Below are positions 1 through 3,878 of a stretch of DNA of 9,885 nucleotides, piece by piece. Numbering within the stretch: the stretch's first letter is position 1; every line of letters begins with the position of its first letter. A model generated the notes under the pieces. It searched no databases, was not told where the DNA came from, and was given only the letters and a program-made list of their open reading frames with translations. Source of the stretch: a virus. Its lineage: Duplodnaviria > Heunggongvirae > Uroviricota > Caudoviricetes. The translations under genes and the position numbers were made by a program. Location of the stretch: the IMG/VR virus record IMGVR_UViG_2534681835_000035; one strand, 5' to 3'.

Positions 1-348
1 GCCTGCGGCAACGGCTTTCCGGCTGATGGTCGTACGGACCTTTTTACCCCGGAGAACACCGGCAAGTCCCATAACCGCCATGAGACGTGCCACTGTACAT
101 CTGGCCACCCTGATTCCTTCCCGTAACAACTGACGCCAGACTTTACGCACACCGTACACCTGATGATTTTCATCGTATACGCGCTGTATCTCTCTCTTCA
201 GCCAGTCGTCGTGCTGCGCACGGGCACTGCGTTTATCCGGATGATGTCGCTGTTGCTGACAATGGTAATACGTTGACGGGGCAATATGCAGTTCGCTGCA
301 TACCGGTCCGACCCCGTACTGCTCACGCAGCTTATCCAGCAGTGGCAT
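1..348 (-). CDS. IS3-family transposase OrfB (DDE catalytic subunit), N-terminal part only; 3' end outside window
   Basis: The ATG at 348..346 overlaps the orfA stop (ATGA). Translation [16 protein letters not shown]... continues to position 1 as ...GVLRGKKVRTTISRKAVAAG with no stop, in the -1 frame relative to orfA as expected for IS3-family OrfAB frameshifting. Confidence 0.85.
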   Translation of the reverse strand, partial: MPLLDKLREQYGVGPVCSELHIAPSTYYHCQQQRHHPDKRSARAQHDDWLKREIQRVYDENHQVYGVRKVWRQLLREGIRVARCTVARLMAVMGLAGVLRGKKVRTTISRKAVAAG

Positions 349-674
349 CATTTTTTCCAGAGGCGGTCGAACTCCGCCTTCGCAAAATAAGCGGAAGCCT
401 GGCGAAGGATATCGTTACTGCGGCGCAGTTCACGATTTTCACGTTCCAGCTCTTTCAGACGCTGACGTTCAGCGCTGGTGAGCCCACCATCACCGCCCCC
501 GGTATCCCGCTCATGCTGGCGAACCCAGACACGCAGAGTCTCCGGCGTACAGCCAATCTTTGGGGCAATGGAACAAATTGCCGCCCACTGTGAGTCATAT
601 TCATCCTGACTTTCCAGAACCATACGAATCGCCCGCTGACGGACTTCGGGGGAAAAACGAGTATTTTTAGTCAT
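348..674 (-). CDS. IS3-family transposase OrfA (HTH and leucine-zipper subunit)
   Basis: 108-aa [60 protein letters not shown]...[36 protein letters not shown], recognised as IS629/IS1203-type OrfA. An A-rich slippery run (CTG GAA AAA ATG A) sits at its 3' end, overlapping the orfB ATG. Confidence 0.9.
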
Positions 675-699
675 CCTGTTTACCTCTTTCTCAGGGAGT

Positions 700-1155
700 T
701 TAGTCTCCAGGATTTCCGGGGCGGTTCAGTTCAGCCATTTTGCGCTTAGTCATCCCCCGCCCCACATAACGCTGACTCAGAACATTGAGCAGCCCGGGAT
801 AACCTGCCAGTACTTCACCAATAACCCTGTCGATTATTAACGCCTCTGAATCGGTACAATGTGCCAGCCAGCTTTTTTGATTGCCGTTGATCATATCCCG
901 CAAAAAAGCCTCAAGTTCAGGTTTGTCCAGACCCGCTTTTTTCATCCTCCGGAGCGCCTCGTTAATTGCCGTTTTTGTCAGCTTTTTAGAGGTCAGTAAT
1001 TGGTTGAACATATTTCCCGTCTTACCGTCGCCAATATACGACCAACGCCCCCACATACGCAGTTTCCCCTGGATCCAGACACTTTCCAGCGTTTTCAGGC
1101 GTAAATGCTCACCGCTTTTGCCTGTAATTTCCGGGTATATCATATTTATGCTCAC
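700..1155 (-). CDS. Putative late-gene antiterminator (Q-like), 3' end disrupted by the IS insertion (last ~9 codons and the stop are IS-derived)
   Basis: 151-aa ORF directly downstream of rusA with an ATGA start/stop overlap, which is the position Q occupies in lambdoid phages. The reading frame crosses the IS terminus at 728/729, so the tail ...LNRPGNPGD and the stop are encoded by the IS inverted repeat. The Q assignment is by position and loose resemblance only, not by a recognised motif. Confidence 0.5.
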
Positions 1156-1511
1156 TCACTTTCAATTTTGTAAATCTTCACGCCCAGCCGCCCACCAGAA
1201 ACGAGCTGGCCGCGCACAATATTGATTTCATCAAACTGCTCGTCGTCTATGAGAAGTCCGGCATGCGTCAGCGCATCCAGTGGTGCTTTCAGGATATTGT
1301 CCAGGTCACGACGGCGCTTATCCGGTGGCTCTGCAATAATCTTTATCGCCAGCCTTCCGGACAGGTTTAATTTCAGCCGCTGCTGGCGAACAATAAGTGC
1401 CACATCCCGGCGATAACGCTCACCGGCTTTTGATACAAAATATGTGCTGCCACGACGTCGCCAGTAGGTGTTCACCGTCGGCGGGTAAGGCAAAACAAAC
1501 TCTATACGCAT
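1152..1511 (-). CDS. rusA: RusA-family Holliday junction resolvase (crossover junction endodeoxyribonuclease)
   Basis: 119 aa, MRIEFVLPYPPTVNTYWRRRG...PDKRRRDLDNILKAPLDALTHAGLLIDDEQF, matches the E. coli RusA pattern (PWPPS.N.YYR ... PDRRRRDLDN..KA..DALT.AG...DD.Q). Sits in the usual nin-region position upstream of Q. Confidence 0.9.
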   Translation of the reverse strand: MRIEFVLPYPPTVNTYWRRRGSTYFVSKAGERYRRDVALIVRQQRLKLNLSGRLAIKIIAEPPDKRRRDLDNILKAPLDALTHAGLLIDDEQFDEINIVRGQLVSGGRLGVKIYKIESE

Positions 1512-1523
1512 CAGTAACCTCTT

Positions 1524-2627
1524 TTACCCGAGCACGCCGGTTGCAAAGGCGTGATCAAGAAAACGAAAAATTAAATCAACCTGGGAACCATGCTTTTCTT
1601 CGAACGCCAGCGGATCCGCATGAAGCTCGTTGTGATGCTCCCGACACAGCGGTAGCGTGAAAATATCGTGGGATTTTGTTCCCATTCCGCCCTGACCATG
1701 ACCAATCAGATGATGAGGATCGTCCGCTGGCTTACCACAACACGCACACGGCTGTGTCTTTACCCAGCGTGTGTATTTCTCATTTACCCAGCGGCGACGT
1801 TTAGGTCGTTTCATGAAGGATTCCGGAGACTCCGGATCAACGGCAATGCTGACCACCGTCTTTTCCTGTGGTGGGTTCTGTTGCTGGTGGGTGTGAGGCG
1901 GTAGCGCAATATTTTTTGTGCGCTGCTTCAGTATGCTGGTGGCGGTCTGTTCTCCCGGTATGATGTCGCTTTCACGGTATACGGAGCGGATTTTTTCCGC
2001 CGGTAATCCCAGAGAGCGACGCGATACTGCCTCAGGTAATGCGTCCACCACCTGATTGCAGACTGCCCACCAGGATAATTCAGCCAGCGATAATTCCCGC
2101 TCCTGCGTGCCATTCATTACATGGCGTATGACGTCAATCATCCAGGCTGTCAGATTTTGTTGAGTAAGTTGCTCAAGTGATTCGGAGGTCTGGTCGCGCA
2201 GCTGGTTGTCGCAGTGCCAGCACAACACCATTGCGCCAGCACCGTAACTGTGAATAACGGTTTCGCTGTGATGATAATCGCCGTGTGGCCACTGGCAGGA
2301 TTTCACGTGACGTAATAACCAGTCAGACAGTGCACCAGCGCCGCCAGCTGCACGAATCACCCGCTCATCGCTGAAAAATGGCAGCAGTGATTTATCTTCC
2401 GCCAGCGGCTGGCGAACAGCAGGAACCGCTCCAGATGGCAGCGCCCGCATGTTTTTCGGTTCCGGCTCCACCAGCACCCTGCCGCGATGAAAAACTGGCA
2501 ATGATTCACGACCGGGCTTAAGGACCACCAGCCCGAGTTCCGGAACCAGAACAGGTCGAAGTAATACCCGCACATTACCTCCAGACGCGCTGACGGTAGC
2601 AGGCATGTGTCCGTGGCAGATGTGCAC
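1524..2627 (-). CDS. YdfU-like (DUF968-like) prophage protein with a C-terminal Cys/His-rich, HNH-like putative metal-binding motif; start codon uncertain
   Basis: 367-codon ORF from GTG 2627 (alternative ATG at 2606). C-terminal segment KTQPCACCGKPADDPHHLIGHGQGGMGTKSHDIFTLPLCREHHNELH has paired Cys and His residues. The gene sits 12 nt upstream of rusA, the same neighbourhood ydfU has next to Q in the Qin prophage. The DUF968 assignment is from memory. Confidence 0.65.
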   Translation of the reverse strand: MHICHGHMPATVSASGGNVRVLLRPVLVPELGLVVLKPGRESLPVFHRGRVLVEPEPKNMRALPSGAVPAVRQPLAEDKSLLPFFSDERVIRAAGGAGALSDWLLRHVKSCQWPHGDYHHSETVIHSYGAGAMVLCWHCDNQLRDQTSESLEQLTQQNLTAWMIDVIRHVMNGTQERELSLAELSWWAVCNQVVDALPEAVSRRSLGLPAEKIRSVYRESDIIPGEQTATSILKQRTKNIALPPHTHQQQNPPQEKTVVSIAVDPESPESFMKRPKRRRWVNEKYTRWVKTQPCACCGKPADDPHHLIGHGQGGMGTKSHDIFTLPLCREHHNELHADPLAFEEKHGSQVDLIFRFLDHAFATGVLG

Positions 2628-2847
2628 GAACAGGAAGATATACAGAAACGGTCCAGGTCAGACGATCAGCGTTCAGACTCCGCTCCACACGGACACCGCG
2701 ACGCAGATACGCCTCTTGAAGCATATCTGCCTCATCGATCGTACAGAACAGATAGTGAAACCAGCCATACTGAGGCGCACGAAAACGCCTCCCCTGCTTA
2801 ATTTCCGGGTCGGCTTCAGAATTGTGGGATTTTATGTGTTGTGTCAT
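2575..2847 (-). CDS. Hypothetical 90-aa protein overlapping the 5' end of the YdfU-like ORF by 53 nt in a different frame
   Basis: ATG at 2847 with a GGAG Shine-Dalgarno 6 nt upstream. The first ~60 residues look protein-like (MTQHIKSHNSEADPEIKQGRRFRAPQYGWFHYLFCTIDEADMLQEAYLRRG...); the last ~25 residues look like an out-of-frame readthrough. It occupies the position of rem in Qin, but no sequence match is claimed. Confidence 0.45.
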   Translation of the reverse strand: MTQHIKSHNSEADPEIKQGRRFRAPQYGWFHYLFCTIDEADMLQEAYLRRGVRVERSLNADRLTWTVSVYLPVRAHLPRTHACYRQRVWR

Positions 2848-2921
2848 CGGATTCTCCGGTGACAGCAGGTGTCAGTTGTTCAGGCTGACTGCGCGAATTG
2901 TAAGGCAATACGCCGGAATGT

Positions 2922-2950
2922 ACAAACAGAAAACCCGTCAGTAAGACGGG
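2922..2950 (-). terminator. Rho-independent terminator downstream of the YgiW-like gene
   Basis: On the minus strand a CCCGTC-TTACT-GACGGG hairpin (plus 2934..2950) is followed by TTTTCTGTTTGT, about 20 nt after the TAA stop at 2969. Confidence 0.55.
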
Positions 2951-2968
2951 CTTAACAAGCAGGGGCGG

Positions 2969-3313
2969 TTACTTTAATAATTTCAGTGCCTTTACATCAA
3001 CTTCAACACTGCTCAGGTCTTTATCAATTTCACCCTCAATTCTTACTTTGTCTTTCGGAGAAACATTCTGCCCGGCCCATACGCTGTCATCAATATCCGT
3101 GACAATTGTCCCGCTATTGTCACGAAACTCATAACGTTCATCACCCACTTTTTTAACGATGCTCCCTTCAAGGATAACCCATGCATCATCCTTCAGTTCT
3201 TTTGCCTGCGCTACTGTTGAACGCTCTGCTTCTGGCCCCTGGAAACCACCCTGCTGTGCAAAAGCGCCAAAAGACACACCGGAAATAAGTGCTGCAATCA
3301 ATACCTTTTTCAT
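2969..3313 (-). CDS. YgiW/YdeI (BOF) family periplasmic OB-fold protein with signal peptide
   Basis: 114 aa, MKKVLIAALISGVSFGAFA-QQGGFQGP..., with a signal peptide and AFA-QQ cleavage site, and the family pattern GGFQGP...W..L.G.IV......Y.F.D.SGTI..DID...W.G..V.PKD.V.I.GE.DKD..SVE.DVK. AGAGGA Shine-Dalgarno 7 nt before the ATG. Confidence 0.85.
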   Translation of the reverse strand: MKKVLIAALISGVSFGAFAQQGGFQGPEAERSTVAQAKELKDDAWVILEGSIVKKVGDERYEFRDNSGTIVTDIDDSVWAGQNVSPKDKVRIEGEIDKDLSSVEVDVKALKLLK

Positions 3314-3432: not shown

Positions 3433-3588
3433 TTACTTCTCAGATTCGTAGTCTACGAAGACAGCGACCTCCGTCTGACCGGTTCGGATTCGCACCTCGC
3501 AGAGGTCTTTCCTCGTTACCAGTGCCGTCACTATGACGGTTAAACAGATGACGATCAGGGCGATTAACATCGCCTTTTGCTGCTTCAT
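3433..3588 (-). CDS. hokD: Hok/Gef-family type I toxin (HokD/RelF-like small membrane peptide)
   Basis: 51 aa, MKQQKAMLIALIVICLTVIVTALVTRKDLCEVRIRTGQTEVAVFVDYESEK, near-identical to my recollection of RelF/HokD and carrying the Hok signature (LT/VTRK.LCE..IR.G..EVA.F..YES). AAGGAG Shine-Dalgarno 9 nt upstream of ATG 3588. The ORF track extends the same frame to an upstream ATG at 3645. Confidence 0.85.
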   Translation of the reverse strand: MKQQKAMLIALIVICLTVIVTALVTRKDLCEVRIRTGQTEVAVFVDYESEK

Positions 3589-3878
3589 AGCCTGCTTCTC
3601 CTTGCCTTTCGGCACGTAAGAGGCTAACCTACATGTGTTCAGCATGGATTGAGCCTCAGATTAATGTTAAGCGTCTTGCAGGACGCGTAATGTTAACTGG
3701 GGCTTTTCTCTATCTGCCGTTGGTGTTCATGCCCGAGGCAGATAGCCTCAAGCACCCGCTGCAATTCTACTTAACTATCCTTTTCCCGCAAACCGTTTTT
3801 ATCCCCAGCGGCAAATCGAATACTCCACCAGCGCCACCGCCATCGCAATTCCTACCGTTGTGAATGCTTCAGGCCAGG
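3589..3878 (-). promoter_or_regulatory. Long hok leader: candidate promoter, upstream in-frame mok-like start, and likely site of an antisense Sok-like RNA on the plus strand
   Basis: 290 bp separate the upstream gene from hok. Candidate minus-strand promoter TTGCGG-N16-TAGAAT (plus 3791..3764). Stable inverted repeats in the leader (TATCTGCC 3711..3718 with GGCAGATA 3737..3744; GCGTC 3671..3675 with GACGC 3682..3686) and an imperfect hairpin just 3' of hok (3404..3425). By analogy with hok/sok loci, an antisense RNA would be transcribed rightward from about 3600..3700, but its ends are not determined. Confidence 0.35.

What the first reader, a model, noticed from the sequence alone, without database searches (positions are those of the whole stretch)
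1..1155. IS629-like element inserted into the 3' end of the putative Q antiterminator gene
The terminal inverted repeat of an IS3-family element abuts codon ~142 of the Q-like ORF at 728/729, so the last 9 residues and the stop codon are IS-encoded. The qut site and late operon that should follow Q are replaced by IS sequence. This would uncouple late (lysis and structural) gene expression from the early operon, a typical route to a cryptic prophage.
Basis: partly seen in the sequence, partly recalled or inferred. Interest (0 to 1): 0.55.

Follow-up and report, generated by a model that had tools for sequence, protein, structure and literature searches.

The report
IS1203 truncates a prophage Q gene
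A common mobile element (IS1203/IS629) sits in the late-gene switch of a lambda-like prophage of E. coli O111:H8, cutting off the end of the antiterminator gene and, with a 613-base deletion, removing the late promoter; this is an ordinary way for such prophages to decay.

Summary
Window 1-728 is the transposase-proximal part of a complete 1310-bp IS1203/IS629 element. Its inverted repeat ends exactly at 728/729, inside a minus-strand ORF (700-1143).

The ORF is a DUF1133 protein. Sequence, profile and fold all place it as a divergent relative of antiterminator Q21, and in free phages it occupies the Q position just before the lysis genes. It keeps 139 of 184 native residues plus 8 IS-coded ones, and loses the predicted DNA-recognition helix.

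The interpretation needs correcting. This is not a simple insertion. Compared with the near-identical prophage of O111:H- 11128 (99.98% on both flanks), strain 8E also lacks 613 bp and has no target-site duplication. The lost DNA holds the Q 3' end, a conserved promoter / -10-like pause element / terminator cassette (the likely PR'-qut-tR'), and a 65-aa ORF.

The late operon is not replaced. Lysis, head and tail genes and nleC continue beyond the IS.

The junctions are unique to this strain among 5,426 complete E. coli genomes; 545 carry the intact arrangement. IS629-driven inactivation and deletion in EHEC prophages is well documented, so interest is low.

The parts
1..728 (-). Transposase-proximal 728 bp of a complete 1310-bp IS1203/IS629-like (IS3 family) element. 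The other 582 bp lie upstream of the window.
   Evidence: L001 5419-6728 is 1310 bp; RefSeq calls it an IS3-like element IS1203 family transposase with a programmed frameshift; thousands of copies at 95% identity or more occur in E. coli genomes.
704..728 (.). Terminal inverted repeat of the IS (the end next to orfA), ...TCTCCAGGATTTCCGGGGCGGTTCA.
   Evidence: arms L001 5417-5443 and 6704-6730, 27 nt, 89% complementary; the outermost 2 nt of each arm are flank. One search shows both repeats.
348..674 (-). IS orfA (108 aa, HTH transposase N-terminal protein).
   Evidence: PF01527 HTH_Tnp_1, E=2.4e-12.
277..393 (-). ALIL frameshift-stimulating pseudoknot at the orfA/orfB overlap.
   Evidence: RF01497, 121.5 bits (gathering score 50), E=6.9e-32; also annotated in RefSeq.
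1..365 (-). 5' part of IS orfB (the catalytic part of the OrfAB fusion transposase). It runs off the window; the upper limit is approximate.
   Evidence: joined CDS L001 5461-6674 with a programmed frameshift.
727..1143 (-). Native part of the DUF1133 / Q21-like antiterminator gene: codons 1-139 of 184.
   Evidence: PF06576, 275.6 bits, covering profile positions 1-140 of 176; identical to the 11128 gene up to L139.
700..726 (-). IS-encoded tail of the truncated ORF (NRPGNPGD) and its stop codon.
   Evidence: the window ORF ends [12 protein letters not shown], the intact protein reads MAELLNDAHPEW...
728..729 (.). IS-phage junction. It is also the right-hand end point of a 613-bp deletion relative to strain 11128 (L002 5390-6002).
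   Evidence: flanks GAC / GTT give no target-site duplication; the two flanks are 99.98% identical to 11128.
1152..1511 (-). rusA, the gene immediately upstream of Q in the early-right operon (context only).
   Evidence: PF05866, E=5e-16.

Best explanation
A lambdoid, nleC-carrying prophage of E. coli O111:H8 strain 8E has lost its late-gene switch through an IS1203/IS629 event.

The 1310-bp IS lies co-directionally with the early-right operon. On one side it abuts codon 139 of the Q-type antiterminator gene (DUF1133, a divergent Q21-family protein). On the other side it abuts DNA that in the intact prophage lies 613 bp further downstream.

The event therefore did three things:
1. It removed the last 45 of 184 residues of Q. 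These include the predicted recognition helix of its helix-turn-helix and most of the family's invariant C-terminal residues.
2. It deleted the conserved cassette that follows DUF1133 genes: a sigma-70 promoter, a -10-like element five bases after it, and an intrinsic terminator about 50 nt further on. This is read here as PR', the sigma-dependent pause / Q-loading site, and tR'.
3. It deleted a 65-aa winged-helix ORF.

The late genes remain but have lost both their promoter and the factor that carries RNA polymerase through terminators. Late expression should be uncoupled from induction, and another prophage's Q acting in trans cannot rescue it.

Shown: the anatomy, the deletion, the homology and the uniqueness to this strain. 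Inferred: the role of the cassette, the loss of function, and how the deletion arose. The likeliest routes to the deletion are two nearby IS copies followed by recombination, or a transposase/IEE-associated IS-adjacent deletion.
For: IS identity and exact end:
-.

Comparison with the near-identical prophage:
- O111:H- 11128 has the same prophage at 99.98% identity on both flanks. It has no IS and an intact 184-aa gene.
- 613 bp (L002 5390-6002) are absent in 8E, and the flanks GAC / GTT show no target-site duplication.

Q identity:
- PF06530 Phage_antitermQ scores 31-33 bits against a cutoff of 26.
- phmmer to Q21 (PDB 6p18) gives E=8e-4; a family profile gives E=1.7e-9.
- The AlphaFold model (mean pLDDT 69; the ten-residue blocks covering residues 101-170 average 82-93) has Q21 structures as all ten best Foldseek hits (probability 1.00, TM 0.51-0.69). 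The next hit has E=2.9.
- In free phages the gene sits directly before the lysis genes.

What the truncation removes:
- The break falls in helix 133-143. Helix 149-174, which carries invariant T151, R155 and E164 and near-invariant C152 and W159, is lost.
- In Q21 the second helix of the HT[loop]H reads the QBE major groove, and the C-terminal six residues contact RNAP (10.1101/651190).

The cassette:
- TTGnnn-N17-TnnAAT-N5-TAnGCT overlaps or follows the stop codon in 26 of 41 DUF1133 loci from many Enterobacterales genera.
- An AACCCGC...GCGGGTTTTTT terminator follows 32-79 nt later in 25 of those 26.
- In 11128 it lies at L002 5873-5762, inside the deleted segment.

Distribution:
- Both 8E junctions occur as one continuous match in no other of 5,426 complete genomes.
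- The intact arrangement is at least 80% covered in 545 genomes.

Late genes:
- They are present beyond the IS.

Literature:
- IS629 causes gene inactivation and IS-adjacent deletions in EHEC (PMC9943667) and drives variation within prophages (PMC4587872).
Against: - No expression or induction data exist; loss of late transcription is inferred.
- The promoter / pause / terminator reading rests on sequence pattern and conservation only. The simple promoter scan did not list the TTGCTT-17-TTCAAT site, because its -10 lacks the A at position 2.
- DUF1133 lacks the loop insertion that defines Q21's HT[loop]H, and no member has been tested. No paper in the held library mentions DUF1133.
- The N-terminal half of the model is of low confidence.
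- The prophage may already have been non-inducible before this event: ISEc47 in the late leader and a frameshifted gene are also in 11128.
- No intermediate with a simple insertion was found, so the order and mechanism of insertion and deletion are open.
- Everything rests on a single assembly of strain 8E.
Confidence: 0.85

Rival explanations
1. Simple IS insertion. The IS landed in codon ~140 of Q with nothing else lost, and the rest of Q and the qut site lie just beyond the far end of the IS.
For: Simple IS3-family insertions in or next to Q modules do occur elsewhere:
- 14EC017 has an IS629-like copy with a GTT duplication 8 nt after an intact DUF1133 gene.
- 95-3192 and SY033 have an IS splitting a Q gene of another family, with both halves kept.
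Against: - In 8E the far end of the IS joins DNA 613 bp away.
- The 3' 140 nt of Q, the cassette and the 65-aa ORF are absent.
- The flanks are GAC and GTT, so there is no duplication.
Confidence: 0.03
2. The truncated gene is not the phage's antiterminator. DUF1133 would have some other role and late control would lie elsewhere, so the IS event is neutral for late expression.
For: - Pfam and RefSeq file it as a domain of unknown function.
- NCBIfam gives no hit and no paper was found.
- Similarity to Q21 is weak in pairwise terms (E about 8e-4, 17-21% identity).
- The Q21-specific loop is missing.
Against: - The profile and fold matches go specifically to Q21 and nothing else.
- PF06530 scores above its curated cutoff.
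- The gene holds the Q position directly before the lysis genes, with no other Q candidate, in phages L004-L006.
- A promoter / pause-like / terminator cassette is conserved after it.
- Several depositors already name it antiterminator or late gene regulator.
- Even if the protein were not Q, the deleted promoter-terminator cassette sits at the head of the late region.
Confidence: 0.07
3. Assembly artefact. The IS-flanked junction and the 613-bp gap come from mis-joining of reads at one of the many IS1203 copies in strain 8E.
For: - The junctions are seen in only one assembly.
- The genome holds at least 18-24 places matching queries that contain IS sequence, and such repeats are a classic source of assembly error.
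- The same assembly has a frameshifted tail gene that is not seen in 11128.
Against: - The record is a closed chromosome.
- Both flanks are collinear with the 11128 prophage at 99.98% identity and in the right order and orientation.
- A mis-join at a repeat would normally link unrelated loci. It would not remove exactly 613 bp between two sites in one locus.
Confidence: 0.05

Closest known systems
IS629 / IS1203 (IS3 family) insertions and IS-associated deletions in EHEC prophages
   Same: - The element matches in length (1310 bp), inverted repeats, orfA/orfB with a frameshift pseudoknot, and multi-copy presence in the genome.
- It is a strain-specific insertion in a lambdoid prophage gene with loss of adjacent DNA.
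- IS629 is reported as a main driver of variation within a prophage type (PMC4587872). It is also reported as a cause of gene inactivation and of deletions from a few nt to more than 40 kb next to the IS (PMC9943667, citing Kusumoto 2011 and Ooka 2009).
   Different: - Here the IS is retained with both ends intact while one flank is deleted. The published IEE model (PMC9943667, Fig. 12) describes excision of the IS followed by end joining.
- The route to this deletion is therefore not established. No intermediate was found.
Bacteriophage 21 Q protein (Q21/Q933W family, Pfam PF06530; PDB 6P18, 6P19, 6JNX)
   Same: - The fold matches: the ten best Foldseek hits are all Q21, TM 0.51-0.69.
- The sequence profile matches at E=1.7e-9.
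- The N-terminal W-rich motif aligns (WLNGWLELWGAW against [12 protein letters not shown]).
- The C-terminal helix-turn-helix aligns.
- The gene holds the same position before the lysis genes, followed by a promoter, a -10-like element and a terminator.
   Different: - Identity is only 17-21%.
- DUF1133 proteins lack the ~13-residue loop of Q21's HT[loop]H and are about 20 residues longer.
- The family is small and restricted to Enterobacterales: 73 representatives at 50% identity, most of them fragments.
- No member has been tested for antitermination.
Lambda PR'-qut-tR' late regulatory cassette
   Same: The layout matches (from my own knowledge of lambda PR'): a sigma-70 promoter immediately after Q, a -10-like hexamer a few bases after the true -10 (lambda: AACGAT; here: TAnGCT), a short leader, then an intrinsic terminator before the late genes.
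   Different: - The sequences are unrelated.
- The leader is about 50 nt, against 194 nt in lambda.
- The Q-binding element has not been located.
- Nothing has been tested.

Membership tests
IS3 family, IS629/IS1203 group | Element of about 1.3 kb bounded by imperfect terminal inverted repeats ending 5'-TG...CA-3' | tested here: met
   1310 bp; arms TGAACCGCCCCGG...; 27 nt, 89% complementary.
IS3 family, IS629/IS1203 group | Two overlapping ORFs (orfA with an HTH, orfB) joined by a programmed -1 frameshift with a stimulatory RNA structure | tested here: met
   OrfA matches HTH_Tnp_1, E=2.4e-12. ALIL pseudoknot RF01497 scores 121.5 bits. RefSeq gives a joined CDS with a programmed frameshift.
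IS3 family, IS629/IS1203 group | DDE (rve) catalytic domain in OrfB | not tested
   Most of orfB lies outside the window and I did not scan it. I rely on the RefSeq name 'IS1203 family transposase'.
IS3 family, IS629/IS1203 group | 3-bp target-site duplication flanking the copy | tested here: not met
   The flanks are GAC and GTT. The adjacent 613-bp deletion explains this. The related copy in 14EC017 does have a GTT duplication. This feature belongs to a fresh insertion, not to the element itself.
Pfam DUF1133 (PF06576) | Score above the curated gathering threshold | tested here: met
   275.6 bits against 23.1. The match covers profile positions 1-140 of 176, so the C-terminal fifth is missing. 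The intact 11128 protein covers 1-176 at 349 bits.
Q21/Q933W antiterminator family (PF06530) | Sequence match above the Pfam gathering threshold | tested here: met
   31.0 bits for the truncated protein and 33.2 bits for the intact one, against a cutoff of 26. 10.1101/651190 assigns PF06530 to Q21/Q933W.
Q21/Q933W antiterminator family (PF06530) | Q21 fold | tested here: met
   The ten best Foldseek PDB hits are all Q21 (probability 1.00, TM 0.51-0.69) and the next hit has E=2.9. Caveat: mean pLDDT of the model is 69 and the N-terminal half is weak.
Q21/Q933W antiterminator family (PF06530) | HT[loop]H DNA-binding motif with the long B1-B2 loop (Q21 residues 105-121) | tested here: not met
   The profile alignment shows a ~13-residue insertion in Q21 that DUF1133 lacks. 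The model has a short turn between helices 133-143 and 149-174. DUF1133 is therefore a divergent relative, not a typical member.
Q21/Q933W antiterminator family (PF06530) | Gene at the end of the early-right operon, directly before a promoter, a sigma-dependent pause element, a terminator and the late genes | tested here: met
   Position shown in phages L004-L006. The cassette pattern is present in 26 of 41 loci, with a terminator in 25 of those 26. This is a sequence pattern only. In the window itself the cassette is deleted.
Q21/Q933W antiterminator family (PF06530) | Q-dependent read-through of terminators (antitermination activity) | not testable with these tools
   Needs a reporter or an in vitro transcription assay.

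The most novel reading that the evidence does not exclude
DUF1133 proteins may be an untested fourth flavour of late antiterminator. They would be Q21-fold proteins with an ordinary short-turn helix-turn-helix and their own conserved loading site (TTGnnn-N17-TnnAAT-N5-TAnGCT, then a terminator about 35-80 nt on).

IS629-type elements may also hit the Q / PR' module of EHEC prophages more often than chance. Four independent cases were seen here, all co-oriented with Q: 8E, 14EC017, 95-3192 and SY033. The cause could be a target preference, or selection for locking effector-carrying prophages such as this nleC phage in place.
Probability: 0.25. Interest if true: 0.4.

Novelty: already known. Interest (0 to 1): 0.2.

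Why it matters
For strain 8E it means that one effector-carrying (nleC) lambdoid prophage has very probably lost the ability to switch on its lysis and particle genes, so it is fixed in the chromosome. That is a routine step in prophage domestication in EHEC and a useful strain-typing marker, but nothing more.

The side result has some practical value. It gives a firm case for annotating DUF1133 genes as Q21-type antiterminators. It also gives a defined candidate loading site and terminator that could be tested directly with a reporter.

Tried and rejected
- I searched all 5,426 complete E. coli genomes for the two hypothetical intermediates: a simple insertion with a GTT duplication in Q, and a simple insertion with a GAC duplication at the other site. 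No genome covered either query to 80%, so the order of insertion and deletion cannot be read from existing genomes.
- I searched the literature for 'DUF1133' and found no papers.
- I tried to read Ooka 2009 (PMC2765283) for IS-adjacent deletion classes; it is not held.
- NCBIfam gave no hit for the DUF1133 protein or the 65-aa ORF.
- The simple promoter scan did not list the candidate PR'. It was found only by comparative alignment.
- The exhaustive phmmer search of 1.84 billion representatives returned only DUF1133-type proteins, 73 in all and mostly fragments. It did not bridge to Q21. The link needed Pfam, profile-to-PDB and fold comparison.
- I considered that the downstream 237-aa 'helix-turn-helix' protein might be the real Q. 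I rejected this because it is an AraC-family (YdeO/GadX-like) regulator.
- I did not check whether strain 8E carries the IS-excision enhancer gene iee. The tools cannot query one genome by gene name.

Full report

Yes. Window 1-1600 matches E. coli O111:H8 strain 8E (NZ_CP077465.1) at 100%. RefSeq annotates there an IS3-like IS1203-family transposase with a programmed frameshift. It is followed on the same strand by a DUF1133 pseudogene ('missing C-terminus'), rusA and a DUF968 gene.

- The IS is 1310 bp (L001 5419-6728; window position = L001 position minus 6000). Its terminal inverted repeats begin TGAACCGCCCCGG.
- The window holds its transposase-proximal 728 bp. These include orfA (348-674, minus strand; HTH_Tnp_1, E=2.4e-12) and the ALIL frameshift pseudoknot (277-393, minus strand; 121.5 bits, E=6.9e-32).
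- Counted from the annotated ATG at 1143, the ORF is native through L139. It then reads NRPGNPGD and a stop from IS sequence: eight IS-coded residues, not nine.

**2. What the comparison with a near-identical prophage shows**

E. coli O111:H- 11128 carries the same prophage without the IS. The two loci are 99.98% identical on both sides, with one mismatch in 5,392 bp and one in 6,874 bp. The only structural difference is the 1310-bp IS in 8E in place of 613 bp of 11128 sequence (L002 5390-6002).

The flanks of the IS are GAC and GTT, so the 3-bp duplication expected of a fresh IS3-family insertion is absent. This is an insertion combined with an adjacent deletion, not a simple insertion.

The missing 613 bp hold four things:
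- the last 140 nt of the DUF1133 gene (45 codons and the stop);
- the whole intergenic region after it;
- a 65-aa ORF with a weak TrmB-type winged-helix match;
- that ORF's terminator.

**3. Is the gene a Q antiterminator?**

The intact protein is 184 aa.

- Sequence: it matches DUF1133 (349 bits) and also Phage_antitermQ PF06530, at 33.2 bits against a cutoff of 26. Yin, Kaelber and Ebright assign PF06530 to the Q21/Q933W family (10.1101/651190).
- Solved structures: phmmer against PDB sequences finds only Q21 (6p18, 6jnx; E about 8e-4), aligned over nearly the whole length. A 14-sequence family profile raises this to E=1.7e-9.
- Fold: an AlphaFold model built from 35 homologues has mean pLDDT 69, with ten-residue block means of 82-93 over residues 101-170. 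Its ten best Foldseek PDB matches are all Q21 structures (probability 1.00, TM 0.51-0.69). The next match has E=2.9.
- Position: in deposited phage records (Escherichia phage vB_EcoS-683R6 and two Klebsiella phages) the gene is the last early gene, directly before the holin and endolysin genes. No other Q candidate is present there, and some depositors already call it Q.
- Length: complete homologues are 174-192 aa. The few shorter ones are partial entries or truncated variants.

One defining Q21 feature is not met. The ~13-residue loop of the HT[loop]H motif is absent. I therefore treat DUF1133 as a divergent relative that most likely works like Q21, not as a typical member.

**4. What the truncation removes from the protein**

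The break after L139 falls in predicted helix 133-143. Helix 149-174 and the C-terminal tail are lost. That segment carries T151, R155 and E164, which are invariant across 35 sequences, and the near-invariant P145, C152, W159, A163, L167, Y168, P170 and F175.

In the profile alignment this helix corresponds to the second helix of Q21's DNA-binding motif. That helix reads the Q-binding element in the major groove, and the last six residues of Q21 contact RNA polymerase (10.1101/651190). The protein left in 8E is therefore very unlikely to load onto RNA polymerase. This is an inference.

**5. The deleted regulatory cassette**

An alignment of the DNA after DUF1133 genes from E. coli and Klebsiella phages shows conserved blocks, although the proteins are only about 60% identical.

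I then examined 41 loci: 37 from one-genome-per-species contigs, three phage loci and 11128.
- 26 carry the pattern TTGnnn-N17-TnnAAT-N5-TAnGCT at a fixed place overlapping or just after the stop codon.
- 25 of those 26 have an intrinsic terminator (AACCCGC-loop-GCGGGTTTTTT) 32-79 nt further on.
- Several loci that miss the strict pattern still have the terminator.
- By my own rough estimate, about 0.001 matches per 215-nt stretch would be expected by chance.

The layout is that of a Q-regulated late promoter as described for lambdoid phages: a promoter right after Q, a second -10-like hexamer a few bases after the true -10, a short leader and a terminator. The resemblance to lambda's AACGAT pause element is from my own knowledge.

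In 11128 the parts lie on the minus strand:
- -35 element: L002 5873-5868
- -10 element: 5850-5845
- TACGCT: 5839-5834
- terminator: 5783-5762

All of them lie inside the 613 bp missing from 8E. The cause is a deletion, and nothing here has been tested experimentally.

**6. What lies beyond the IS**

The late operon is not replaced. After the IS come:
- an AraC-family regulator (YdeO/GadX-like);
- tRNA-Ile and two tRNA-Arg genes;
- an ISEc47 (IS66-family) element;
- TerB, DUF3927 and a SASA esterase;
- holin, lysozyme and a lysis protein;
- terminase, portal and capsid genes;
- a full tail set including J, then Lom and the tail fibres;
- the type III effector gene nleC.

The prophage was not pristine before the IS1203 event. 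The IS66 element and a frameshifted gene between holin and lysozyme are also present in 11128. A frameshift in the major tail gene is seen only in 8E.

**7. How common, and how did it arise?**

- Each of the two 8E junctions occurs as one continuous match in 8E alone among 5,426 complete E. coli genomes.
- The intact arrangement is at least 80% covered in 545 genomes, including many O111 strains at 100% identity. The event is recent and strain-specific.
- Neither hypothetical simple-insertion intermediate exists in the collection.

Two routes fit. In the first, a second IS copy lands nearby and recombination between the two direct copies removes the DNA between them. In the second, an IS-adjacent deletion accompanies transposase (and possibly IEE) activity. 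The literature reports IS629-linked deletions of a few nt to more than 40 kb next to the IS (PMC9943667). However, the published model removes the IS itself, which is not what is seen here. I cannot decide between the routes.

**8. Related cases seen on the way**

- Strain 14EC017 has an independent IS629-like copy, 95.2% identical to the 8E copy. It has a clean GTT duplication and sits 8 nt after an intact DUF1133 stop codon, inside the 17-nt spacer of the candidate late promoter.
- Strains 95-3192 and SY033 have an IS3-family element splitting a Q gene of another family next to rusA, with both halves kept.
- All four insertions are co-oriented with Q.

This may be chance in IS-rich genomes, or it may be a target or selection bias. 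I did not test it statistically.

**9. Verdict**

The phenomenon, IS629/IS1203 inactivating and deleting prophage genes in EHEC, is well documented (PMC4587872, PMC9943667), and RefSeq already flags the pseudogene. Interest is low.

The modest added value is twofold: the evidence that DUF1133 is a Q21-type antiterminator, and a defined, conserved candidate loading site and terminator.

Noticed in passing
window 3433-3757 (minus strand): A hok/sok toxin-antitoxin module in the nin-like region. The sok antisense RNA (RF01794, 113.5 bits) lies at 3583-3757 and a Hok/Gef CDS at 3433-3588.
   Followed up: no
L003 2651-3960 (E. coli 14EC017, NZ_CP024134.1): An independent IS629-like copy, 95.2% identical to the 8E copy, with a GTT target duplication. 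It sits 8 nt after an intact DUF1133 stop codon, inside the 17-nt spacer of the candidate late promoter, in the same orientation as in 8E.
   Followed up: partly
L049 1823-3825 and L050 1676-3678: In strains 95-3192 and SY033 an IS3-family element splits a Q gene of a different family ('bacteriophage antitermination protein Q') next to rusA. Both gene halves are kept and the IS is co-oriented with Q. IS hits on Q modules may be recurrent.
   Followed up: partly
L002 5873-5762 (minus strand); L004-L006 and L009-L045 just after the DUF1133 stop codon: A conserved cassette, TTGnnn-N17-TnnAAT-N5-TAnGCT, occurs in 26 of 41 loci. An AACCCGC..GCGGGTTTTTT terminator follows 32-79 nt later in 25 of those 26. 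The loci span Escherichia, Klebsiella, Citrobacter, Enterobacter, Buttiauxella and other genera.
   Followed up: yes
L002 5442-5639 (minus strand); deleted in the window's strain: A 65-aa ORF with a weak TrmB-type winged-helix match is the first gene after the terminator. This segment is shared by more than 2,000 E. coli genomes, apparently including prophages whose Q gene region does not match (for example one in O104:H4). Its function is unknown.
   Followed up: no
L001 4623-5336 (minus strand), outside the window: An AraC-family regulator (YdeO/GadX-like, 237 aa) now starts 83 bp from the distal IS end and is co-oriented with the IS. Its promoter-like site (ATGATA-16-TATAAT) is retained. 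Read-through or outward transcription from the IS could change its expression.
   Followed up: no
L001 1721-4137; L007 15555-16308: An ISEc47 (IS66-family) element sits in the late leader after the tRNA genes in both 8E and 11128. The major tail gene is frameshifted only in 8E, which may be a real mutation or a sequencing error.
   Followed up: partly
L015 and L024: DUF1133 loci with 83% and 58% identity to the E. coli protein are filed under a 'Candidatus Nanosynbacter' MAG and a 'Vagococcus' assembly. This is most likely enterobacterial contamination or mis-binning.
   Followed up: no
window 1524-2627 (minus strand): The DUF968 protein upstream of rusA has a sub-threshold HNH-nuclease match (PF16784, 22.4 bits against a cutoff of 26.6) in its C-terminal Cys/His-rich part. 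One Klebsiella phage annotates the gene at this position as an HNH endonuclease.
   Followed up: no
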